NCBI GenBank assembly: GCA_036476895.1
Contig: JAZGCJ010000206.1
Location: forward strand, 1-29,041
Direction: 5' to 3'
Length of the DNA: 29,041 nt
Source of the DNA: Thermodesulfobacteriota bacterium
GTDB taxonomy: Bacteria; Desulfobacterota_D; UBA1144; Nemesobacterales; JAZGCJ01
A model generated the notes under the pieces. It searched no databases and was not told the origin of the DNA. It saw nothing but the letters and a program-made list of their open reading frames with translations. Position numbers and translations under genes: made by a program. This document shows positions 4,011 through 28,749 of the stretch, in pieces (positions within the stretch are counted from its first letter, which is position 1; every line of letters begins with the position of its first letter).

Positions 4011-5399
4011 ATGAAATTAGATTCGAAACGAAATAAGGTGAAGATGAAAGACTTAACCAAAGACGACTTAATCGATATAGAAAGGTGGGGATTTTGGCAT
4101 AGGTCATATCAATCACATTTCTTTCAGAACTTCTTAGACGTGAGACATGTGGAGGAGGTTGACTTCAGTTCTCATGTGGCACCCCATGCGGAAGGATTAT
4201 CAATTCGATTTATCCTTGAAGAATTCTTTAAGACGAAAAAGATCAAGGTTGAAAAGATAGTCAACATCGGTAACGATAGTGATTATGCCCCAAGAGTCTC
4301 AAACATTGAATATGAGAATGGAAAGTTTCGTAGTTGCTTGTTAATTGGGCAGTACATGTTGGATATTAATAAAGAGAAATATCTTTTATCGGTGGATACA
4401 TTATCTCAGGGGTTCATGGACTTTGTTTTCGTTGCACGAAAAGAAGCAAAGATTAAGGCGAAAGACCTAACAACGGACTTGACCACCTATGCTTCTTCTC
4501 ATAATTATCTGAAAGGCAAGAAGATTGATGGAGACTTAACGCTGATTGATTTGAAACGAAAGTATGGGTGGGATGATTTAATCTTAGATAAGTACACAAA
4601 TAAAGAATTACAGACTAATCTTATGAATCTGATTGATAATGTAGAAGTGTATGAGAAGAATAATCTTCCTCTCAAAAGAGGATTGATTATATCAGGAGAG
4701 CCAGGAACAGGAAAGAGTTTACTCGGAAAGATTCTGTGTCACAAGACTGACTGGACATTCATATGGGTGACACCGAAGAATTTTCATGATATTGAAAGTG
4801 TATCGAACATCATGAAAACGGCACGCATGTTAGGACCCACCATCTTATTTCTCGAAGACATTGATTTGTATGGTAAACATAGAGACCAGAATGCATTGGC
4901 TTCTTTGTTGGGGGAACTTATGAATCAGCTAGATGGAATCGAGGATAATAATTATGTCGTGACAATTGCTACGACAAATAATCAAGATGCCTTAGAGAAA
5001 GCGTTAATCAATAGACCTGGCAGGTTTGATAAGGTTATTAGATTTAACAGCCCGACGAATAAGTGCCGAGAACAAATGTTCAAAACTTTCATTGGTCATT
5101 TACGAATGGATGCGGATATTGATATGGAAGAATTGATAGACCGGACGGATAGATTGACAGGGGCACAGGTTAAAGAGGTTGTAAATCAAGCTGTTCTGCA
5201 AGCCATTGATTTTAAGTCATATGATGAGAACAAGATTCTAACGCTAAAGAAAAAGCATTTCGAGATTGCATTAAATCAGACCCGTAATAAAGACTTTAAG
5301 GCTGCGGTAGGGTTTGGGCTTGGGATAAATGGAAATGGACAAGATAATGCTGAAGTACAACCAACATATACTGAACCACCAATGGAGACGGGACCGTAA
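4011..5399 (+). CDS. AAA+ ATPase (classical AAA clade) with an unassigned 230-aa N-terminal domain
   Basis: Walker A GEPGTGKS, Walker B ILFLEDID, second region of homology TTNNQDALEKALINRPGRFD, C-terminal helical lid; GGAGG RBS. Confidence 0.9.
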   Translation: MKLDSKRNKVKMKDLTKDDLIDIERWGFWHRSYQSHFFQNFLDVRHVEEVDFSSHVAPHAEGLSIRFILEEFFKTKKIKVEKIVNIGNDSDYAPRVSNIEYENGKFRSCLLIGQYMLDINKEKYLLSVDTLSQGFMDFVFVARKEAKIKAKDLTTDLTTYASSHNYLKGKKIDGDLTLIDLKRKYGWDDLILDKYTNKELQTNLMNLIDNVEVYEKNNLPLKRGLIISGEPGTGKSLLGKILCHKTDWTFIWVTPKNFHDIESVSNIMKTARMLGPTILFLEDIDLYGKHRDQNALASLLGELMNQLDGIEDNNYVVTIATTNNQDALEKALINRPGRFDKVIRFNSPTNKCREQMFKTFIGHLRMDADIDMEELIDRTDRLTGAQVKEVVNQAVLQAIDFKSYDENKILTLKKKHFEIALNQTRNKDFKAAVGFGLGINGNGQDNAEVQPTYTEPPMETGP

Positions 5400-6783: not shown

Positions 6784-7265
6784 CATTTATCATAAATGTA
6801 CCTATCGAGTTTTCCATAAGACCAGATGATTATAAGACAAGGGTTCGAAGCCGAAGAGGGTTTGAATACGTTAATCATATCGATGGTTGGGATCGTTTAG
6901 ATAAGAACAGACGCAGAGCCGATTGGTATTTTGAAAGAGTTGTGAATGATTGTTTGTCGGTATGGGATCAATCCGAAGCTTTTAGACATGAGAAACAATT
7001 ACACCAAGGAAGAAAAGTTTGTAGTTGCATGGATAGTCTTACTTGTCGGTGTTTAGAACGCTTGCTATTGGTTAGAATACTTGATTATTTACAATCCCGC
7101 AAAGGTAATGGTGTAAGAGTATCTTACATTCCTTTAGTGAGAGCATGGTTCGTAGCGGAGTATGGTATTTGGCATTACGATATGAATAACTTAAAGATTA
7201 TAGAAGCATGGGACAGTTTTGAATTGGAGGAAGAATATGGCAAAGCTACGAAAGAATGTGTGTAA
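6780..7265 (+). CDS. hypothetical protein with degenerate C-terminal tag (…YDMNNLKIIEAWDSFEL…)
   Basis: ORF with GTGA start coupling and a tag-like C-terminus. Confidence 0.55.
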   Translation: MTFIINVPIEFSIRPDDYKTRVRSRRGFEYVNHIDGWDRLDKNRRRADWYFERVVNDCLSVWDQSEAFRHEKQLHQGRKVCSCMDSLTCRCLERLLLVRILDYLQSRKGNGVRVSYIPLVRAWFVAEYGIWHYDMNNLKIIEAWDSFELEEEYGKATKECV

Positions 7266-7686
7266 TCTTGGTAGACCATCAACAACCATACATGCAGTTA
7301 AACGAGATATAAATCTCAATAAATTAACAGACAATGAATTGTTTTTAACCATCATGGATAGCATAAAGGTGGGGGCTATTCATAAACTCCAAAAGGTAAA
7401 AGGTCAGAAGCGTGTTTGGGCTAACAGAGCAGTATTTTATTTAGGTAAGAATAATAAAATGATAGTGGAAAATATACTCACTACTCTTAATAGCGAGTAT
7501 CGATTAATTATTGTGGCACCTCGCAAAGGATGGGATGTACGTTTTCCAACCACAACGAAATTCAATTATTACTTAGATTGTATGTTATGGGCGTTACCTA
7601 AGTTTTATGATATAGGTGGTGACTTGAACGTTTCAGAAGGAGTTGAATATTCATATAAAAAATGTAGGAGACCAAGATCAATATGA
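7237..7686 (+). CDS. hypothetical protein (~149 aa)
   Basis: ATG at 7237 is preceded by GGAGG at 7227-7231; in frame with the longer ORF 7219-7686. Confidence 0.55.
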   Translation: MAKLRKNVCNLGRPSTTIHAVKRDINLNKLTDNELFLTIMDSIKVGAIHKLQKVKGQKRVWANRAVFYLGKNNKMIVENILTTLNSEYRLIIVAPRKGWDVRFPTTTKFNYYLDCMLWALPKFYDIGGDLNVSEGVEYSYKKCRRPRSI

Positions 7687-8381
7687 GCGAAGAGAATAAA
7701 GAAAAGAAAGAAAAGAATTGGGCAACCAAGTTAGCTGAAGATGAGGCTAAGAAAGAGGCAGATGCGGTACCAAACTGGAAGCGTGTAGTAAATGGTATTG
7801 GAAAGGTAGTTAATACAATAACGACTCAGATTAATAATGAGTTACAAAAGAAACAACAGTTGAAAGCTCTAAGACGAGACCAAGCTATAGGTTTGTTAAA
7901 GCCGACGAATCCACCCTCACCAGAACAAATCTTTAGAAAGGAAGGGGCAGGATACGATCCTGAGAATCCTATGAAGCCAGTTCAAGATGGAAATATAAAT
8001 GTTGGGAATGGTGGTAACACTATTCGATTTCAAACAGGGAATATACCAAGATTTGACATAGATGAAGAGACAGGATTCTATCGTAATGCAACGAAGGAAG
8101 GTTTTATTAAGCGACCAGCAAAGCGGATAAAAATCAAGAAGATTAGAGGTGATACAATAATAAACACTGGCTTCGATAAAGATGTTAAAGACATGGTAGG
8201 TCCTGCTGATGGAAAACTCAAAGAGGTTAAACTGAATGAGCACTATTACCAGGTGAATGTTAAATGCTTCAATTGTCAGGAAACGTATACGTTTGGGATT
8301 CCAAGAGGTACAATGGCTCAAGGGTTTCTGGCTAAACAGCCATGTAAGAAGTGTGGTGTTAAATACTTGAGAAAATACTAG
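7683..8381 (+). CDS. hypothetical protein with C-terminal zinc ribbon (CFNCQ…CKKCG)
   Basis: 232-aa ORF; ATGA coupling; TAG stop. Confidence 0.6.
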   Translation: MSEENKEKKEKNWATKLAEDEAKKEADAVPNWKRVVNGIGKVVNTITTQINNELQKKQQLKALRRDQAIGLLKPTNPPSPEQIFRKEGAGYDPENPMKPVQDGNINVGNGGNTIRFQTGNIPRFDIDEETGFYRNATKEGFIKRPAKRIKIKKIRGDTIINTGFDKDVKDMVGPADGKLKEVKLNEHYYQVNVKCFNCQETYTFGIPRGTMAQGFLAKQPCKKCGVKYLRKY

Positions 8382-18025: not shown

Positions 18026-18249
18026 AATACACAATAGCAGGATTCTTACTCCAAATAGCGGGATGTGGTGTAATTGTTTATGTTTCAGCTATTTCCGGCG
18101 TAGCACCAGCCTTAATCTGGATTTTGGTTGGTGGTGGGACGCTGATGGCGATTGGTGGGGCCTTCATGAGTGTAGCTCGTGACCGGAGCAATTACCTCAC
18201 TCAGCTTCAGGATGTGGCAGAAAAGTTAGAAAAAGACAAAAAACCTTAG
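18022..18249 (+). CDS. two-TM small membrane protein with charged C-terminus (holin-like topology)
   Basis: ATGA coupling; TM1 IAGFLLQIAGCGVIVYVSAI, TM2 ALIWILVGGGTLMAIGGAFM, tail …AEKLEKDKKP. Confidence 0.5.
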   Translation: MKYTIAGFLLQIAGCGVIVYVSAISGVAPALIWILVGGGTLMAIGGAFMSVARDRSNYLTQLQDVAEKLEKDKKP

Positions 18250-18310
18250 ACAAATTGATGGAAAAGTCTTATAACATAAGTAGGTGTAGTGACAACAGAT
18301 TTGCGGACAA

Positions 18311-18482
18311 AGGAAGTTCCTATAAAACTTCACTAATGGAAAAAATACTTCCCGTCCCTCTAATTTAGGTAAAGGGAGTTCCTATAACTATTTAAAGGTA
18401 GACCGCCTTCGGGCGGTCTGATATTACTCCCCACCAATTTTTAGGCAGAAAGAGTTCCTATAAAATAAGCCCTTCGGGGCTT
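18311..18482 (+). promoter_or_regulatory. three direct copies of a 17-nt motif AAAGrGAGTTCCTATAA, two followed by GC hairpins with UUCG tetraloops
   Basis: Copies end at 18327, 18388 and 18465. Hairpins AGACCGCC-TTCG-GGCGGTCT at 18400-18419 and AAGCCC-TTCG-GGGCTT at 18467-18482 have no U-tract. They sit 70-220 nt upstream of the 608-aa gene. Confidence 0.5.
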
Positions 18483-18533
18483 CTACGAAAATACTCTTCG
18501 CCTTATTTTTAAATCTAATATCGGGAGAATCAA

Positions 18534-20360
18534 ATGAAAACATTAAAATTGTTCAATGCAGTTGTTGAGAAGAAATCAGATAAGAAACATTTTGTGTCTG
18601 AAGATGGATATGTTATTGAATCGGGGGCACTTTGGGCTAAGACCCGAATTGTTAATTACTACAAGAAAGAGGCATTGAACGGTAACGACCTGAATAAGAC
18701 TTTCCATAAGTCATGGAAAAAGATTAAAGATAGTACTCGTGGAGAATTACTTGTTCATCAGATCCTTCATTATTTGACAACTTACGGTACTGGTTTTCAA
18801 ATGGAAGCTTACATTCCTAATGAGATTGTTAAACTTCCTAAAACAAAGATTGTTTTCAAAGTGATCAAAGCATACACCAAAGAAGAATTAATTAACAAAG
18901 CTTTGAGAATGTTGAAATCAGGGATTGCTCTGAAAGAAGAAACAGTCAATGATTTGTTGTCTGTTCTTGTGGATGATCTTGATTATAAATTTACAGGTGA
19001 TGAGGGGATTAAAAATAAAGAAGCTGTCGTAAAGATTGCTGATCTTTATGGTGTTATTCCTAATGACTTCATGGGCTTCTTCCGTTACATTCTTTACAGA
19101 GCCACTGAATCAACCTTGATCATTAAGAACAAACGAACCATTGAAACTGTTCAAAAGAGTTCATACAATCCTGCTGCCCAATTTAAGAAATTTGGCTTAG
19201 CTAAAGTAGCAGAACATTTCAATAGATTTAAGCCTTTATTCTTGGCATTTAAATCTAAGTGTCCAAAAGTTATAAATAAAATCTCGAAGCTTTCGAAAAC
19301 CAATCATAAACCAATGGTTCAGAATGCTTTGAATCTTGTGACTCAGCGAAAGCTTACTGTTGATGATAATCACTGGCTTGCTAACGCAACTCTTTTTGCT
19401 TTGTTTAAAGCATTGAATGCTGTTCATCTTCGTTTGAATGGGCAGAATACGTTTCTTTATAAGATTCGTAATGGAAAGTCTTACGCTAAAGAGAGTAAAG
19501 TTACTTCTGTCAATGAGCATAATTATAACTACTTAATCAAATACTTGAAGGGTAGATTTTCATTCAATGGTAAGAAGATTTTTATTCCTGAAGATGTTGT
19601 GTATGCCCTTCCTACTTCGGAGAAAATGTTTGTTGGGAATATTCCTATGGGTTCTAAGTTCTACGGTAACAAGTTGGCTGTTGGTATTTATTGGAAGAAT
19701 TCGGGAGGAGCACGAGACCTTGATTTGTCAAGTATCAATGTTGACGGTAAGGTAGGTTGGAATAGAAGTTATTATGATGAAGACCAAAACCTTATGTTCT
19801 CAGGAGATATTACAAATGCTCCTGATGGGGCTGTTGAATATCTTCACGCCAAGAAAGGTGTAGCACATCCTACAATTGTAATGAACAATGTGTACAGTTT
19901 CTCAGGATCTGATTGGGGTGAGGATACTACAGGTAAAACTTGCAAGTATAAGATCATCATTGGTCGTGGTGATAGAATTGACAGAAAGTTTATGATGAAT
20001 CCTAATAATTTGTTCATGGAAACTAATGTTGAATCAGTTCAAGAACAATCAATTATTGGCTTGTTCTTACAGGAAGGTAAAAGACAAGCATTTGTTGTTC
20101 TTAACTTCGGAGCAGGACAAGCAAGAGTTTCTGGAGGCAATGAGCATTCTGCCACTGCTCGTGTTGCATTGACTCAGGAATGGAGTAATTCATTGTCATT
20201 CAATACGATTGTGGAAGCACTAGGTGCGAAGATTGTTCAGAAAAGTAAAGACGCTGATATTGATCTTTCTTTAAATACGTTAGAAAGGGATTCGTTTATT
20301 AAAATCTTTGAATCAAAGGGAAGTAACACTACCAAACAAAAAGTATTGGTAAAAGTGTAG
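18534..20360 (+). CDS. 608-aa protein with C-terminal TerD-like domain
   Basis: GGGAGAATCAAATG RBS. Residues ~375-560 (KLAVGIYW…ARDLDLSSINVDGKV…LMFSGDITNAPDGAVEYL…PTIVMNNVYSF…IIGLFLQEGKRQAFVVLNFGAGQ) follow the TerD block order (GlgW…DlDlSa…DGkV…hSGDn…vfvv…lfgely…AvGqG) by eye; N-terminal 370 aa unassigned. Confidence 0.8.
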   Translation: MKTLKLFNAVVEKKSDKKHFVSEDGYVIESGALWAKTRIVNYYKKEALNGNDLNKTFHKSWKKIKDSTRGELLVHQILHYLTTYGTGFQMEAYIPNEIVKLPKTKIVFKVIKAYTKEELINKALRMLKSGIALKEETVNDLLSVLVDDLDYKFTGDEGIKNKEAVVKIADLYGVIPNDFMGFFRYILYRATESTLIIKNKRTIETVQKSSYNPAAQFKKFGLAKVAEHFNRFKPLFLAFKSKCPKVINKISKLSKTNHKPMVQNALNLVTQRKLTVDDNHWLANATLFALFKALNAVHLRLNGQNTFLYKIRNGKSYAKESKVTSVNEHNYNYLIKYLKGRFSFNGKKIFIPEDVVYALPTSEKMFVGNIPMGSKFYGNKLAVGIYWKNSGGARDLDLSSINVDGKVGWNRSYYDEDQNLMFSGDITNAPDGAVEYLHAKKGVAHPTIVMNNVYSFSGSDWGEDTTGKTCKYKIIIGRGDRIDRKFMMNPNNLFMETNVESVQEQSIIGLFLQEGKRQAFVVLNFGAGQARVSGGNEHSATARVALTQEWSNSLSFNTIVEALGAKIVQKSKDADIDLSLNTLERDSFIKIFESKGSNTTKQKVLVKV

Positions 20361-21360: not shown

Positions 21361-21389
21361 TTGACAACTACTTGTATTCCTTTATACTC
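21361..21389 (+). promoter_or_regulatory. sigma70/sigA promoter TTGACA-16-TATACT
   Basis: -35 at 21361-21366, -10 at 21383-21388; followed by a 180-nt leader containing hairpin GGATC-GCAGCATAGA-GATCC. Confidence 0.6.
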
Positions 21390-21572
21390 AATATAGAGAT
21401 TTACTTAACAGATTCGGATCGCAGCATAGAGATCCTGTAAACAGTTAGATGGATCAACAAATCCTGTGGTATCTGGAACTACTAAGGGACAAATTGGTCA
21501 CCCGTCCAGAGGGGAAGCGATAACATTCTAAGTATTCGCCTGTTTACTAGCATTTTAAAAAGGGGGTGTATT

Positions 21573-21872
21573 ATGAAAATTGAAAGACATAAATTAAAAA
21601 AAGTTAAACTTAAGGATTTTGCAGAAAAACACAATCTTACATTGGTAATTTCTGAAAGACCAAAGTGGAATTGGAAAGTTGGACGCTATACTGCTCAATT
21701 CAAAAATGTTGAAGTAAAAGAGGGTAGCTTTCTTAAGAGTTTGTATGGAGATGGTGAAAACGAAGAAAATGCTGTACAAGATTATATATCAAATATTTCA
21801 GAAAGTACTTTGGTGTATGATGCTTATGGAAAAAATAGAAAAGTATTTGAAGTACCACTTTTGGTTCCGTAG
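21573..21872 (+). CDS. hypothetical protein (99 aa)
   Basis: AAAGGGGG RBS. Confidence 0.6.
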   Translation: MKIERHKLKKVKLKDFAEKHNLTLVISERPKWNWKVGRYTAQFKNVEVKEGSFLKSLYGDGENEENAVQDYISNISESTLVYDAYGKNRKVFEVPLLVP

Positions 21873-22210
21873 TACGGAGTAGTACCTTTGCGAGAAGGCC
21901 ACGGACGGGGTAGGAGGAGTAAATTCCTATATGATTGTGAAACTCATTCTTTCTTCTCACAAATTTGATAGCATAGTTTAATTTGGAAAAACACCTCTGA
22001 ACATCGGTTGATGCGGAGGAGATGGTGGTTCGAGTCCACTTGGTATCTGGATGGGTGCAAACCCGCATTCGGTTGGTCCCCGTTAAAAGACCAAGATTTT
22101 GTGGAGGTGTGGTGTACACACAGGAGTGCCGACTAGTAGGCGTGGGTGAGAACCTACTTTATGATCTCCAACTCTGGAATAGACGGTAAGAATCCGTCCC
22201 ACAGAACAAT
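21873..22210 (+). ncRNA. candidate structured non-coding RNA (unclassified)
   Basis: No ORF over 40 codons on either strand. GGGT-GCAA-ACCC GNRA hairpin (22052-22063); tRNA T-arm-like GGTGG-TTCGAGT-CCACT (22024-22040); GACGG-TAAGAAT-CCGTC (22182-22198); long-range complements TTCTCAC (21954)/GTGAGAA (22147) and GGACGGGG (21903)/CCCCGT (22078); TTCCTATA motif at 21924. Confidence 0.3.
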
Positions 22211-27263: not shown

Positions 27264-27336
27264 GCCCATGTAACTCAGATGGTAGAGTGCCTGTTTGAAG
27301 CACAGGTGGTCGCAAGCTCGAACCTTGCCGTGGGCA
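27264..27336 (+). tRNA. tRNA-Phe (anticodon GAA)
   Basis: Manual fold: acceptor GCCCATG/CGTGGGC, D-stem ACTC/GAGT, anticodon stem CCTGT/ACAGG, loop TTGAAGC, T-stem GCAAG/CTTGC; no encoded CCA. Confidence 0.7.
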
Positions 27337-27337
27337 C

Positions 27338-27411
27338 GCCGAATTAGTACAATGGTAGTACACGTCATTGGTAATGATGAGATATGAGTTCAATTCTCGT
27401 ATTCGGCTCCA
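27338..27411 (+). tRNA. tRNA with anticodon GGU (Thr)
   Basis: Acceptor GCCGAAT/ATTCGGC, D GTAC/GTAC, anticodon stem CGTCA/TGATG, loop TTGGTAA, T-loop TTCAATT, encoded CCA. Confidence 0.65.
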
Positions 27412-27412
27412 T

Positions 27413-27486
27413 GCCACCATAGCTCAATAGTAGAGCAATGCTTTTGTAAAGCGAAGACGAGGGAGCGTTACCTTCTGGTGGCTCCA
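27413..27486 (+). tRNA. atypical tRNA, anticodon UGU (Thr) as folded
   Basis: Perfect acceptor GCCACCA/TGGTGGC and D-arm GCTC/GAGC. Anticodon stem has one mismatch (ATGCT/AGCGA); loop TTTGTAA; T-loop AGCGTTA is non-canonical; encoded CCA. Confidence 0.45.
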
Positions 27487-27491
27487 GATTT

Positions 27492-27803
27492 ATGTTCAAC
27501 AAAATAAAGCGTTGGTATATAGACTTTTGTAAAAGACATTCAACGGCTGTGGGGATTGTCGAGTTAGAAGATTATATCATTCCTTCAGGGCATTCAGTTT
27601 TTACAAATTTGCATGGTTGGTGGACTCCACCAAATGAAGTTTTAGAGTTTTGGGCAGCAGGATGCAAATATCGATACCTCAGTGATAATTGGTGGTTTAT
27701 TGACTTAGTGTTAGCATCTAAAGAAGCGGATACGGATATTGAAAAGATAAAACAGTCGTATGAGAAAGCAATTCAAGATTTTTATCGAATCAATGCTTTG
27801 TAA
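27492..27803 (+). CDS. hypothetical protein (103 aa), Trp-rich
   Basis: ATG 6 nt after the tRNA CCA; stop abuts the next tRNA. Confidence 0.55.
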   Translation: MFNKIKRWYIDFCKRHSTAVGIVELEDYIIPSGHSVFTNLHGWWTPPNEVLEFWAAGCKYRYLSDNWWFIDLVLASKEADTDIEKIKQSYEKAIQDFYRINAL

Positions 27804-27877
27804 GCCTCAATAGTTTAATGGAAGAATTCTCGTTTCGTAATCGAGGGATGCCAGTCCGATTCTGGCTTGAGGCTCCA
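27804..27877 (+). tRNA. tRNA, anticodon CGU (Thr) as folded
   Basis: Acceptor GCCTCAA/TTGAGGC, T-arm GCCAG-TCCGATT-CTGGC, anticodon stem CTCGT/TCGAG with U:U at 31:39, loop TTCGTAA; weak D-stem; encoded CCA. Confidence 0.5.
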
Positions 27878-27970
27878 GATTTTCGTCGCCGGAGACCCTT
27901 TTCACCCTTTCGAGGTCTTGTGGACTTCAAAGGCGAAGGGTTGTCAGAAGTCTGACGGTGACACTAATTT

Positions 27971-28312
27971 ATGAATCGATTCGAAAAAGTCCGAGACTTA
28001 GTTAAAGATATAGCAGCTAGGAAATGTAACAAAATTGACGAATACAATAATTTTGTTACAACTTTTCCGACAATTATCAGCATATATGTTGAACATATGA
28101 AATTCTGTAAAGAAAAAGAAAGTCCAATCTTCACTCATCATACTGCAAGAATATCTACGAAACAAGCAAATGAGTTAAGAGAGGAGTGGAGAGATGAATT
28201 TATCAAAACGTGTAAATATCCACACTATAATTTAAACAATTTAGAAATTATTGAACTGCACGATTTATTAGTAAAGTTAAAATTTTTAGAATCAACAAAT
28301 TTGGGGCTGTAG
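27971..28312 (+). CDS. NNLEAID-tag family protein (…KYPHYNLNNLEIIELHDLLVKLKFL…)
   Basis: Conserved module; TAG stop overlaps the first bases of tRNA-Ala. Confidence 0.55.
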   Translation: MNRFEKVRDLVKDIAARKCNKIDEYNNFVTTFPTIISIYVEHMKFCKEKESPIFTHHTARISTKQANELREEWRDEFIKTCKYPHYNLNNLEIIELHDLLVKLKFLESTNLGL

Positions 28313-28379
28313 CTCAATTAGGGAGAGCACTCCGCTTGCAACGGAAAGGTTGTGGGTTCGATTCCCACTAGCTCCACCA
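28303..28379 (+). tRNA. tRNA-Ala (anticodon UGC) with G3:U70
   Basis: Acceptor GGGGCTG/TAGCTCC gives the G3:U70 alanine identity pair; anticodon loop CTTGCAA; T-arm GTGGG-TTCGATT-CCCAC; encoded CCA. Confidence 0.8.
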
Positions 28380-28384
28380 ATTTT

Positions 28385-28534
28385 ATGAAAAGACGAACAC
28401 TTGAAATCATCTTATGGATTATTTTACCCTTCTGGATGATAGCAGCAGATTATGTTGCTGTAGATGGATTTCATACGAAACTTATTATGAAGAAAGTTTC
28501 TCAAATTTATGAGACAATTAAAAGTAGGAGATAA
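28385..28534 (+). CDS. small membrane protein (49 aa)
   Basis: ATG 6 nt after the tRNA CCA; IILWIILPFWMIAADYVAV. Confidence 0.35.
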   Translation: MKRRTLEIILWIILPFWMIAADYVAVDGFHTKLIMKKVSQIYETIKSRR

Positions 28535-28675
28535 AGTTTATTCGCTATATTTCAATCAAGAGATCACAATCGTGAAGATTGTAGATGATAATAACTGGGA
28601 GTTTGAGATCCAAGGTCATATTGAGAAAGCAAAAACTCCGCTATCATATTTTGAACGAAAAGCGAAATAATTTCT

Positions 28676-28749
28676 GGTTGTATGGTGTAGTGGCAGCACG
28701 TTAGCCTGTCAAGCTAAAAGTGGGGGTCCAATTCCCCCTATGACCGCCA
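28676..28749 (+). tRNA. tRNA-Asp (anticodon GUC)
   Basis: Acceptor GGTTGTA/TATGACC, D GTGT/GCAC, anticodon stem TTAGC/GCTAA, loop CTGTCAA, T-arm GGGGG-TCCAATT-CCCCC, encoded CCA. Confidence 0.75.

What the first reader, a model, noticed from the sequence alone, without database searches (positions are those of the whole stretch)
18311..18530. Triplicated 17-nt motif AAAGrGAGTTCCTATAA with UUCG-tetraloop GC hairpins in front of the only isolated transcription unit
Three near-identical copies lie 62 and 76 nt apart in one orientation in the 280-nt gap before the 608-aa gene. The motif does not resemble the sigma70-type promoters found elsewhere in the window (13145, 21361, 9740). Copies 2 and 3 are each followed within 10 nt by a perfect GC-rich hairpin with a UUCG tetraloop and no U-tract. 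A fourth, weaker TTCCTATA occurs at 21924 just upstream of the putative ncRNA region. Candidate interpretations: a phage-specific (middle/late or phage-RNAP) promoter triplet with 5' stabilising hairpins, a regulator binding array, or replication-origin iterons.
Basis: seen in the sequence. Interest (0 to 1): 0.6.

Follow-up and report, generated by a model that had tools for sequence, protein, structure and literature searches.

The report
Tandem protein-linked RNA modules, not promoters
The three repeats are copies of a previously uncatalogued folded RNA module found only beside one uncharacterised 600-residue protein gene in phages and Bacteroidota, often grafted onto a tRNA-like RNA, so it most likely forms an RNA-protein pair resembling Ro60 and Y RNA.

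Summary
Three same-strand copies of ..RGAGTTCCTATAA lie at 18309, 18371 and 18447, and nowhere else in the window.

They are not promoters or iterons. Each copy is the 5' core of a 55-75-nt structured RNA unit:
- helix P1, then an A-N-A bulge;
- helix P2, with a purine-only 5' strand;
- an invariant G-UUCCU-AU junction;
- (A/U)UA, the P2 return strand, C, and the P1 return strand.

P1 and P2 covary strongly. A covariance model built from 30 units finds about 60 units in related phage contigs. It finds 213 more in 80 Bacteroidota genomes. Every hit is on the gene's strand and next to a homologue of the 608-aa ORF.

In relatives the same module replaces the anticodon loop of a tRNA-like RNA, in two circular permutations. 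One permutation matches the order of bacterial Y RNA (YrlA) and gives sub-threshold YrlA hits.

The protein has a helical N-domain and a TerD-fold C-domain. It matches no Pfam family and shows no Ro60/TROVE similarity.

Best reading (inferred): these are binding sites for the downstream protein. The leader copies would act as an autoregulatory mimic of its tRNA-like partner RNA. No Rfam family and no paper found here describes it.

The parts
18303..18359 (+). Unit 1 of the RNA module. P1 is 18305-18308 (GGAC) with 18354-18357 (GUCC). The AAA bulge is 18309-18311. P2 is 18312-18316 (GGAAG) with 18348-18352 (CUUCC). The invariant UUCCUAU is 18317-18323. There is no stable P3; UCC 18318-18320 may pair with GGA 18338-18340.
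   Evidence: Covariance model R1 scores it 58.8 bits, E 3.5e-14. It is a seed sequence, so it matches by construction. The minimum-energy fold reproduces P1 and P2, z -2.6.
18365..18438 (+). Unit 2. P1 is 18368-18370 (GGU) with 18433-18435 (ACC). The AAA bulge is 18371-18373. P2 is 18374-18378 (GGGAG) with 18427-18431 (CUCCC). UUCCUAU is 18379-18385. P3 is the UUCG-capped hairpin 18399-18420. By sequence this unit resembles the nearly invariant gene-proximal unit of Bacteroidota (AUAGGUAAAAGGAG...CUCCUCACUUA).
   Evidence: R1 scores it 36.4 bits, E 2.4e-7, and it was not in the seed alignment. The fold reproduces P1, P2 and P3, z -4.4. Comparison with Bacteroidota leaders.
18441..18505 (+). 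Unit 3. P1 is 18443-18446 (AGGC) with 18500-18503 (GCCU). The AGA bulge is 18447-18449. P2 is 18450-18454 (AAGAG) with 18494-18498 (CUCUU). UUCCUAU is 18455-18461. P3 is the UUCG-capped hairpin 18467-18482. The unit is followed by UUAUUUUUAAAU.
   Evidence: R1 scores it 43.5 bits, E 1.6e-9, and it was not in the seed. The fold reproduces P1, P2 and P3, z -3.2.
18506..18533 (+). A/U-rich spacer carrying a Shine-Dalgarno-like GGGAGAA (18523-18529), 4 nt before the ATG.
   Evidence: Read directly from the sequence.
18534..20360 (+). 608-aa ORF, the gene to which the RNA module is strictly linked and its presumed protein partner. Residues up to about 345 are helical, with a conserved but low-confidence stretch at 47-107. 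The C-terminal domain (from about residue 345) has the TerD fold.

Best explanation
The gap holds three tandem copies of a structured RNA module, transcribed with, and in the same direction as, the 608-aa gene.

**Fold of one copy.** P1 (3-6 bp), a 3-nt A-N-A bulge opposite a single C, then P2 (5 bp, 5' strand RRRRG). Next comes an asymmetric junction, with the invariant UUCCU-A-U-W-A-A on the 5' side and (A/U)UA on the 3' side. A variable P3 closes the unit.

**Same module elsewhere.** Next to homologous genes the same module replaces the anticodon loop of a tRNA-like RNA.

**Proposed mechanism (inferred).** The junction and bulge form the binding site for the protein encoded just downstream. 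That protein has a helical N-domain and a TerD-fold C-domain.
- The tRNA-like RNAs are its stable partners. The pair works like Ro60 with YrlA, and the minimal units correspond to YrlB.
- The copies in the mRNA leader mimic that partner. Excess protein would bind its own leader and lower its own expression.
- The route could be blocking the A/U-rich initiation region. Alternatively, binding could stabilise P1/P2 in front of the U-run so that transcription stops.

**Shown:** the fold, its conservation, its strict linkage to the gene, and the tRNA-like grafts.
**Inferred:** binding by this protein, and the feedback.
For: **Structure**
- In 30 minimal units, 93.9% of P1/P2 cells pair, against 70% in shuffles and 41-57% when the partner columns are slid. 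There are 89 double-change cells against 26, and 10 of 11 pairs show compensatory changes.
- An independent set from Bacteroidota, not used to build the model, gives 95.7% paired against 79% in shuffles and 43-64% when slid.
- One P1 pair is G-U in 75 of 121 sequences. On the opposite strand that would be an A-C mismatch, so the + strand is the folded strand.
- A test free of pairing-based selection: 36 of 43 GTTCCT sites upstream of homologues have their own UA+P2' partner. When 5' strands are swapped between sites the mean is 15.9 and the maximum 21.
- Each window unit folds into P1/P2/P3 on its own.

**Linkage to the gene**
- The model finds the units beside the gene in 15 of 16 IMG/VR loci, always on the gene's strand.
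- It finds 213 hits in 80 Bacteroidota loci. All are on the + strand and within about 410 nt upstream, and regex counting gives 1-4 units per gene.
- A DNA-pattern scan of 2.9 million viral contigs, blind to the protein, returned 6 loci. Five carry the gene next to the units and the sixth is cut off at that point.
- Units can also lie downstream of the gene (L025, L001 5825, L003). That fits a partner RNA better than a pure 5'-UTR switch.

**tRNA-like grafts**
- In L001 3615-3732 and L015 9854-9970, a T-arm, a closed acceptor stem and a D-arm sit inside P3. This is the YrlA order, and Rfam YrlA scores 35.9 bits there, E 3e-6.
- The permuted form is a tRNA-like RNA with an open acceptor stem and the module in the anticodon-loop position. 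It is seen in L004, L007, L009 and L022. ARAGORN calls an intron-bearing tRNA-like at the same place, just upstream of the units, in about 55 of the 80 Bacteroidota loci; the module was seen in every one of those that was read.

**Precedent and other support**
- Ro60 with YrlA (tRNA-like) and YrlB (minimal) is encoded near the gene on the same strand (PMC4201824). Phage Ro60 with Y-like RNAs is known (PMC12135203).
- The heptamer after UUCCU varies with protein clade: AU in most, UU or GU in S-CRM01, S-CBWM1 and Phass-1, AA in L008/L010. An interface that co-evolves with the protein would behave this way.
- The gene-proximal unit in Bacteroidota is nearly invariant. It is followed by a U-run: mean 5.7 T in 9 nt, against 3.7 for distal units.
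Against: - No experiment and no direct computation shows that the protein binds RNA.
- The protein has no recognisable RNA-binding domain. The TerD fold is known for Ca2+ binding, not RNA binding.
- No transcription data exist, so it is not known whether the units stay in the mRNA or are cut out.
- No promoter consensus was found in the window's gap.
- No tRNA-like carrier of the module was found in the 29-kb window itself.
- Strict linkage to one gene is also what a dedicated riboswitch for an orphan transporter or enzyme would show.
Confidence: 0.58

Rival explanations
1. Tandem riboswitch. Each unit is an aptamer for a small molecule or ion, and the 608-aa protein handles that ligand. The TerD domain would hint at Ca2+ or a nucleoside-like compound. 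Several aptamers in series would give a steep response.
For: - About 16 nearly invariant nucleotides are concentrated in a bulge and an internal loop between covarying helices.
- In Bacteroidota there are 1-4 copies, always in the 5' leader, and the last ends about 8-20 nt before the ATG.
- A U-run follows the proximal unit, as in terminator-type expression platforms.
Against: - The module is linked to a single protein family in every one of more than 100 loci. Known riboswitch classes usually control several gene families.
- Units also lie downstream of the gene, in L025, L003 and L001 5825.
- The same module is built into tRNA-like RNAs in two permutations. A cis switch has no use for that.
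- Core positions 6-7 vary with protein clade.
- No Rfam riboswitch family matches.
Confidence: 0.15
2. Free-standing small RNAs that act in trans on something other than the neighbouring protein. For example, the exposed UUCCU could pair with AGGAA-type ribosome-binding regions. Alternatively, the tRNA-like bodies could act as decoys for host tRNA-targeting nucleases or tRNA enzymes. The gene linkage would then reflect shared regulation only.
For: - The gene and units sit inside or beside tRNA arrays in S-CRM01, S-CBWM1, many IMG/VR contigs and Pontimicrobium.
- The tRNA-like scaffolds could be matured by RNase P and other tRNA enzymes, as shown for YrlA (PMC4201824).
- UUCCUAU formally has the pattern of an anticodon loop (Y-U-NNN-R-N). 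This is my own reading of the sequence.
Against: - The one-to-one linkage with the protein gene holds across phyla and across phage and cell genomes. Co-regulation alone does not explain it well.
- UUCCU is partly engaged in local pairing in many units, as UCC with GGA.
- No target was identified.
Confidence: 0.12
3. A module like a type III toxin-antitoxin. An array of RNA repeats upstream of a protein gene is processed into units that neutralise the protein, as ToxI does for ToxN.
For: - Same-strand tandem RNA repeats lie directly upstream of a protein gene.
- The module occurs in phages and at varied chromosomal sites with no conserved neighbours.
Against: - The repeats are not near-identical. 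Only the core is conserved and the stems differ.
- No terminator separates the array from the gene.
- The protein is 600 aa, has a TerD fold, and matches no ToxN, AbiF or any PADLOC model.
- tRNA-like grafts are unknown in type III systems.
Confidence: 0.07
4. One reading: a triplet of phage-specific promoters, a DNA operator array, or replication-origin iterons.
For: - Three direct repeats lie in an intergenic gap in front of a gene.
- The core contains TATAA.
Against: - The motif occurs nowhere else in the window or in the related contigs except at this gene.
- It occurs in Bacteroidota chromosomes in front of the same gene, so it is not a phage promoter class.
- Compensatory changes and strand-specific G-U pairs in the flanks show an RNA fold.
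- Several relatives have an ordinary TTGACA..TATAAT promoter upstream of the first unit: L015, L017 and L018.
Confidence: 0.02

Closest known systems
Bacterial and phage Y RNAs (YrlA and YrlB, Rfam RF02553) with Ro60/Rsr
   Same: - The RNA is modular: a protein-binding bulged stem joined to a tRNA-like domain (T-arm, closed acceptor stem, D-arm) at the position of the anticodon stem.
- Minimal RNAs lacking the tRNA-like part sit alongside it, as YrlB does.
- The RNAs are encoded within a few hundred nt of the protein gene on the same strand, in both bacteria and phages.
- The conserved single-stranded core GUUCCUA shares 5 of 7 positions with the metazoan Ro60 contact GGUCCGA (my own comparison with PMC4201824).
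- Units that contain a tRNA body give sub-threshold YrlA hits.
   Different: - The bacterial Ro-binding motif GNCGAAN0-1G is absent.
- The commonest tRNA-like form is circularly permuted relative to YrlA, with an open acceptor end and the protein arm closed by a loop.
- The units form arrays of 1-4 in the mRNA leader.
- All hits score below the YrlA gathering score.
Autoregulatory mRNA leaders that mimic the protein's RNA substrate (ribosomal-protein leaders; the E. coli thrS operator, which mimics tRNA-Thr anticodon arms; T4 gene 32 and gene 43 operators)
   Same: Copies of the same module found in a stable, tRNA-like RNA are repeated in the 5' leader of the protein's own gene, close to the start codon. 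What these known systems do is from my own background knowledge.
   Different: Neither binding nor repression has been shown here. Up to four copies is unusual. The partner protein and RNA belong to no described family.
Type III toxin-antitoxin RNA arrays (ToxI/ToxN)
   Same: Same-strand tandem RNA repeats lie directly upstream of a protein gene, in phages and on chromosomes.
   Different: The repeat units are diverged and covary, rather than being identical. There is no intervening terminator. The protein fold and size are unrelated, and the units carry tRNA-like grafts.
Tandem riboswitch aptamers
   Same: A compact conserved junction sits between covarying helices, repeated in series in a 5' leader.
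   Different: The module is linked to one protein family only. It also occurs downstream of the gene and inside tRNA-like scaffolds. No ligand is known and no Rfam family matches.

Membership tests
YrlA / Y RNA (Rfam RF02553) | Reaches the Rfam gathering score (69 bits) | tested here: not met
   The three window units give no YrlA hit even at E<=10. Relatives with a tRNA body score 35.9, 34.4 and 31.1 bits.
YrlA / Y RNA (Rfam RF02553) | Encoded next to a Ro60/Rsr (TROVE + vWA) gene | tested here: not met
   [not shown]
YrlA / Y RNA (Rfam RF02553) | GNCGAAN0-1G (bacteria) or GGUCCGA (metazoa) in the 5' strand of the protein-binding stem (PMC4201824) | tested here: not met
   The conserved core is G-UUCCU-AU in 61-62 of 62 units. 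No GNCGAA occurs in 18303-18505.
YrlA / Y RNA (Rfam RF02553) | tRNA-like domain (T-arm, acceptor-like stem, D-arm) attached to the protein-binding stem | tested here: inconclusive
   Met in relatives: L001 3615-3732, L015 9854-9970, and the permuted forms in L004, L007, L009, L022. ARAGORN also calls an intron-bearing tRNA-like at the same place in about 55 Bacteroidota loci. Not met by the three units in the window, which carry only short or UUCG hairpins.
Sigma-70-type or phage-specific promoter | The motif recurs in front of several transcription units of the same genome, with no need for base-paired flanks | tested here: not met
   It occurs only at this gene, in the window and in all relatives. 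The flanks covary as RNA helices. The promoter scan finds no consensus site in the gap.
Replication-origin iterons / DNA operator array | Repeats conserved as double-stranded sequence, with no strand-specific pairing | tested here: not met
   Only the core is conserved. The flanks change with compensation, and G-U pairs are tolerated on the + strand only.
Type III toxin-antitoxin (ToxIN-like) | Near-identical tandem repeats, a terminator, then a small ToxN/AbiQ-type endoribonuclease | tested here: not met
   The units differ in their stems. No terminator-like site lies between the array and the gene. The protein matches no PADLOC model and has a TerD fold.
Riboswitch (any Rfam class) | Match to a described aptamer family; ligand-dependent folding | tested here: not met
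   There is no Rfam match above chance in the window units or in the Bacteroidota leaders. Ligand binding itself cannot be tested with these tools.
Intrinsic terminator | GC-rich hairpin followed directly by a U-run | tested here: not met
   Neither UUCG hairpin has a U-run on the + strand. The U-run after unit 3 follows the P1 return strand, not a simple hairpin.

The most novel reading that the evidence does not exclude
This is a previously undescribed class of ribonucleoprotein, widespread in Bacteroidota and in large tRNA-rich phages, including cyanophages S-CRM01 and S-CBWM1. A helical-plus-TerD protein unrelated to Ro60 has independently acquired Y-RNA-like partners. These partners are tRNA-like RNAs whose anticodon loop is replaced by a dedicated binding module. 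The protein also controls itself through an array of the same module in its mRNA leader. Its position inside phage tRNA arrays would point to a role in tRNA or RNA surveillance, or in countering host attacks on tRNA.
Probability: 0.45. Interest if true: 0.85.

Novelty: new variant of a known kind. Interest (0 to 1): 0.72.

Why it matters
If the reading is right, the window holds one example of a large, unannotated RNA-protein system.

- **Scale.** More than 2,300 protein homologues were found, and 270 species-representative genomes encode a relative. Hundreds of RNA units have clear covariation. None is covered by Rfam 15, Pfam, PHROGs or NCBIfam.
- **Convergence.** It would be a second, independent case of a protein tied to tRNA-mimicking RNAs, after Ro60 and Y RNA. 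It comes with natural circular permutations of the RNA, which are useful for working out which parts matter.
- **A handle on phage tRNA arrays.** It gives a first clue to a conserved 'hypothetical protein' that sits inside the tRNA arrays of cyanophages and gut phages.
- **Annotation.** The tRNA-like carriers are likely to be missed or miscalled as intron-bearing or pseudo tRNAs. With introns allowed, ARAGORN assigns them inconsistent anticodons.

Tried and rejected
**Searches that led nowhere**
- Near-identity DNA search of the region against 50,697 phage records: no match.
- Pfam, PHROGs, NCBIfam and PADLOC on the 608-aa ORF and on 40 relatives: nothing.
- PDB sequence and profile searches: nothing.
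- Foldseek against PDB: nothing below E 0.01.
- The afdb50 fold library was not available.
- Rfam on the window units: only chance-level hits (cyano-S1 at 20.7 bits, PhotoRC-I and others). The cyano-S1 alignment spans two adjacent units and rests on UUCCU, so I treat it as coincidence.
- No neighbouring window ORF is conserved beside the gene in the other loci (tblastn).
- Literature searches found no description of this motif or protein: permuted tRNA plus phage, UUCCUAU, S-CRM01, tRNA array plus structured RNA, TerD plus RNA binding, Bacteroidetes RNA motif, tRNA-like plus Flavobacteria.

**Ideas considered and dropped**
- A self-cleaving ribozyme (hammerhead, twister, pistol, hatchet, HDV-like/theta or hairpin): no Rfam hit and none of the conserved cores by eye.
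- A true tRNA intron: the flanks of the insert do not rebuild a 7-nt anticodon loop, and ARAGORN's forced anticodons are inconsistent across orthologous loci.
- A kink-turn at the A-N-A bulge: Watson-Crick pairs follow the bulge, not G-A pairs.
- A T-loop reading of GUUCCUAU: it lacks the required A58 equivalent.
- A triple helix between UUCCU and the purine strand of P2: UUCCU is invariant while P2 varies.

**Not a member**
- The tRNA-like at window 21967-22048, with ATTCCTATA at 21924, could in principle be a large degenerate unit. It gets no model hit, and folding of 21908-22176 is not significant, z -1.6.
Full report
**1. The observation**

The + strand between the ORF ending at 18249 and the 608-aa ORF (18534-20360) carries three copies of the motif. 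They are AAAGGAAGTTCCTATAA (18309-18325), AAAGGGAGTTCCTATAA (18371-18387) and AGAAAGAGTTCCTATAA (18447-18463). With three mismatches allowed, these are the only matches in the window on either strand. The expectation is 0.30, and 1 of 100 shuffles reached three. The exact decamer GTTCCTATAA occurs only there.

The two GC hairpins with UUCG loops are real (18399-18420 and 18467-18482). So the finding is confirmed as a description. The only corrections are that the first hairpin starts 13 nt after its motif rather than within 10 nt, and that the repeat unit is much longer than 17 nt.

**2. The gene behind the repeats**

The 608-aa ORF matches nothing in Pfam, PHROGs, NCBIfam or PADLOC. Forty relatives scanned one by one also match nothing. 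It does have many homologues, at least 2,357 at E<=1e-5, all unnamed.

Among cultured phages the homologues are:
- g174 of cyanophage S-CRM01;
- gp22 of S-CBWM1;
- a protein of gut phage Phass-1.

In the two cyanophages the gene sits in the middle of the tRNA gene array. In Phass-1 it sits beside a tRNA-Ser and a tmRNA. A scan of IMG/VR gave 16 more loci at 29-60% identity, many of them also in tRNA arrays.

**3. The motif travels with the gene**

In nearly all of these loci, TTCCTAT recurs two to four times just upstream of the homologue, on the same strand, even at about 30% protein identity. GTTCCT is about 20 times denser in the 520 nt upstream of the gene than elsewhere in the same loci: 5.4 against 0.28 per kb per strand.

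A scan of 2.9 million viral contigs for two AGTTCCTATAA copies 50-80 nt apart used no protein information. It returned six loci. Five carry the gene next to the repeats and the sixth is truncated at that point. In one of them (L025) the units lie downstream of the gene.

A general phage promoter would not be distributed like this.

**4. It is a folded RNA unit**

Lining up the copies shows that the conserved core is flanked by sequences that differ between copies but stay complementary:

5'-P1 (e.g. AGGC) - A-N-A - P2 (RRRRG) - UUCCU-A-U-W-A-A - variable region - (A/U)UA - P2' (CYYYY) - C - P1' (GCCU)-3'

Window examples of P2 are GGAAG/CUUCC, GGGAG/CUCCC and AAGAG/CUCUU. Examples of P1 are GGAC/GUCC, GGU/ACC and AGGC/GCCU.

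*Covariation in the seed set.* In an alignment of 30 minimal units, 93.9% of the P1/P2 cells form standard pairs. This compares with 70% in shuffles and 41-57% when the partner columns are slid. Ten of 11 pairs show changes on both sides.

*A test free of selection bias.* I had selected those units partly by pairing, so I ran a second test. All GTTCCT sites upstream of homologues were taken by sequence alone. Of these, 36 of 43 have their own UA+P2' partner within 200 nt. When the 5' strands are swapped between sites, the mean is 15.9 and the maximum 21.

*The covariance model.* A model built from the 30 units (R1) scores window unit 1, a seed sequence, at 58.8 bits (18303-18359). It also finds the two window units that were not in the seed, at 36.4 bits (18365-18438) and 43.5 bits (18441-18505). 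It finds nothing else in the window, including at 21924. It also recovers many non-seed units in the other loci. Every hit below E 0.5 is on the gene's strand and beside the gene.

*Single-sequence folds.* Each window unit folds on its own into P1, P2 and P3, with z-scores of -2.6 to -4.4.

Other loci carry unrelated hairpins at the same place, with their own compensatory sequences, or none at all.

**5. Not only phages**

A scan of one genome per species (185,579 genomes) found relatives of the protein in 270. The best 80 are all Bacteroidota: Chryseobacterium, Flavobacterium, Tenacibaculum, Kordia, Pedobacter, Chitinophagales, Cyclobacteriaceae and others.

On these 80 loci (513 kb, both strands) the model gives 213 hits at E<=0.01. 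All are on the + strand and within about 410 nt upstream of the gene. Regex counting gives one to four tandem units per gene. The last unit ends about 8-20 nt before the ATG.

This independent set again shows 95.7% pairing with compensatory changes. One P1 pair is G-U in 75 of 121 sequences. That would be an A-C mismatch on the other strand, so the folded strand is the transcript of the + strand.

The gene-proximal unit is almost invariant (AUAGGUAAAAGGAG-UUCCUAU...UA-CUCCU-C-ACUUA). It is followed by a U-run: mean 5.7 T in 9 nt, against 3.7 for the other units. Window unit 2 resembles this type.

**6. The tRNA connection**

In several loci the variable region of a unit holds a T-arm, a closed acceptor stem and a D-arm. 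This is a tRNA body entered through its anticodon stem. Examples are L001 3615-3732 in S-CRM01 and L015 9854-9970. Others hold only a T-arm plus acceptor minihelix (L008, L010, L001 3883-3968).

In other loci the arrangement is circularly permuted:
- acceptor 5' strand, D-arm, anticodon-stem 5' strand;
- AUUA, P2', C, P1', a loop, P1, A-N-A, P2, UUCCUAU;
- anticodon-stem 3' strand, T-arm, acceptor 3' strand.

The result is an RNA shaped like a tRNA whose anticodon loop is replaced by the module (L004, L007, L009, L022; the L009 and L022 folds are). The L009 copy even encodes CCA after the discriminator base (read from the sequence).

With introns allowed, ARAGORN calls such an RNA directly upstream of the unit array in about 55 of the 80 Bacteroidota loci. 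The 'anticodons' it assigns are inconsistent, as expected if there is none. Rfam's tRNA model also matches them with a long insert.

**7. What this resembles**

The only Rfam family that responds is YrlA, the bacterial Y RNA. It scores 35.9 bits on the S-CRM01 unit (gathering score 69), and 34.4 and 31.1 bits in two Bacteroidota loci.

YrlA is a bulged stem that binds Ro60, joined to a tRNA-like domain in the same T-arm, acceptor, D-arm order. It is encoded within 4 kb of the Ro60 gene on the same strand, together with a shorter YrlB that lacks the tRNA part. It occurs in bacteria and phages (PMC4201824). A phage Ro60 with two Y-like RNAs has been characterised (PMC12135203).

The architecture and genomic logic here are the same. 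Membership, however, fails on every defining feature that could be tested:
- The score is below threshold, and there is no hit at all on the window units.
- There is no GNCGAAN0-1G. The core is G-UUCCU-AU in 61-62 of 62 units.
- The neighbouring protein is not Ro60.

**8. The protein**

The AlphaFold2 model (mean pLDDT 78) is helical up to about residue 345. Within that part, residues 47-107 are conserved but modelled with low confidence. The rest is a beta-sandwich.

- Foldseek against PDB and the sequence searches of PDB find nothing.
- BFVD gives full-length matches (E 1e-18 to 1e-12) to unnamed proteins of other large phages: Campylobacter virus IBB35, Lactobacillus phage LpeD, and one annotated as 'tellurium resistant like'. 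The fold family is therefore wider than BLAST shows.

**9. Mechanism**

*Shown:*
- a covarying RNA fold with about 16 fixed nucleotides in a bulge and a junction;
- arrays of it in the leader of one gene family;
- the same module grafted into tRNA-like RNAs.

*Inferred:* the module is the binding site of the protein encoded next to it. The tRNA-like RNAs would be the stable partners. The leader copies would be mimics through which excess protein lowers its own synthesis. This could work by occupying the A/U-rich initiation region, or by stabilising P1/P2 ahead of the U-run so that transcription terminates.

*Arguments for protein binding rather than a small ligand:*
- strict one-to-one linkage with a single protein family in more than 100 loci;
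- units that lie downstream of the gene;
- the tRNA-like grafts;
- core positions 6-7 that change with protein clade.

*Arguments against:* there is no evidence that the protein binds RNA, and no expression data. I put this reading at about 0.58. The rivals are a tandem riboswitch at 0.15, trans-acting small RNAs or decoys at 0.12, a type III toxin-antitoxin-like array at 0.07, and promoters or iterons at 0.02.

**10. Novelty**

Rfam 15 has no family for the unit. The protein libraries have none for the protein. Seven full-text literature searches found no description. That library misses many subscription papers, so prior description cannot be excluded.

I rate it a new variant of a known kind. 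It appears to work like Ro60 with Y RNA, or like an autoregulatory leader, but with an unrelated protein and a different RNA core.

**11. Limits**

- Whether the window is a phage is inferred from gene content: many small same-strand ORFs, endonuclease VII, and a tRNA cluster with CyVA-1. The identical protein is deposited under a Thermodesulfobacteriota MAG, on a 78.8-kb contig.
- No tRNA-like carrier of the module was found within the 29 kb.
- E-values from R1 are rough, because the model's calibration was shortened.

Noticed in passing
window 21924-22048: A tRNA-like element at 21967-22048 scores 42.4 bits with Rfam tRNA but is missed by ARAGORN. It has an 18-nt hairpin (CAUC-GGUU-GAUG) where the anticodon loop should be. 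ATTCCTATA lies 40 nt upstream at 21924. Model R1 does not hit it, and folding of 21908-22176 is not significant (z -1.6).
   Followed up: partly
window 27264-28749: A tRNA cluster lies here. ARAGORN calls five tRNAs and Rfam adds a sixth at 27413-27483. A CyVA-1 RNA sits between them at 27886-27961, at 43.4 bits, just above the gathering score of 41.4.
   Followed up: no
window 4011-5399: A 462-aa AAA+ ATPase. Its best specific matches are the anti-phage ATPase IetA/IteA (PADLOC 2e-21; NCBIfam IteA 2e-18, below its cut-off). This is odd for what looks like a phage genome.
   Followed up: no
L003 (Phage Phass-1) 7140-8052: Five or six motif units (7140-7606) lie about 1.3 kb downstream of the homologous gene. 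They are followed directly by a tmRNA gene (7614-8052, 77.9 bits).
   Followed up: partly
L064 (Pontimicrobium sp. chromosome) 22-2500 and 4383-4514: More than 20 tRNA genes are packed into 2 kb directly upstream of the tRNA-like carrier, the units and the gene, on a bacterial chromosome. A further permuted tRNA-like element downstream of the gene gives a sub-threshold YrlA hit (34.4 bits) but has no clear UUCCU core.
   Followed up: partly
L028-L107, about 10-70 nt upstream of the gene start: The gene-proximal unit in Bacteroidota is nearly invariant. Its P2 reads AAGGAG/CUCCU, which resembles a Shine-Dalgarno/anti-Shine-Dalgarno pair. It is followed by a U-run. In all units the 5' strand of P2 is almost purely purine.
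   Followed up: partly
window 18534-18570 and homologues: The first 8-10 codons of the protein (MKTLKLFNA) are conserved even among homologues at about 30% identity. This could reflect protein function or an RNA-level constraint near the start codon.
   Followed up: no
window 21361-21570: A good TTGACA-N17-TATACT promoter-like site at about 21361 precedes roughly 180 nt with no ORF, before the ORF at 21573. No Rfam family matched it.
   Followed up: no
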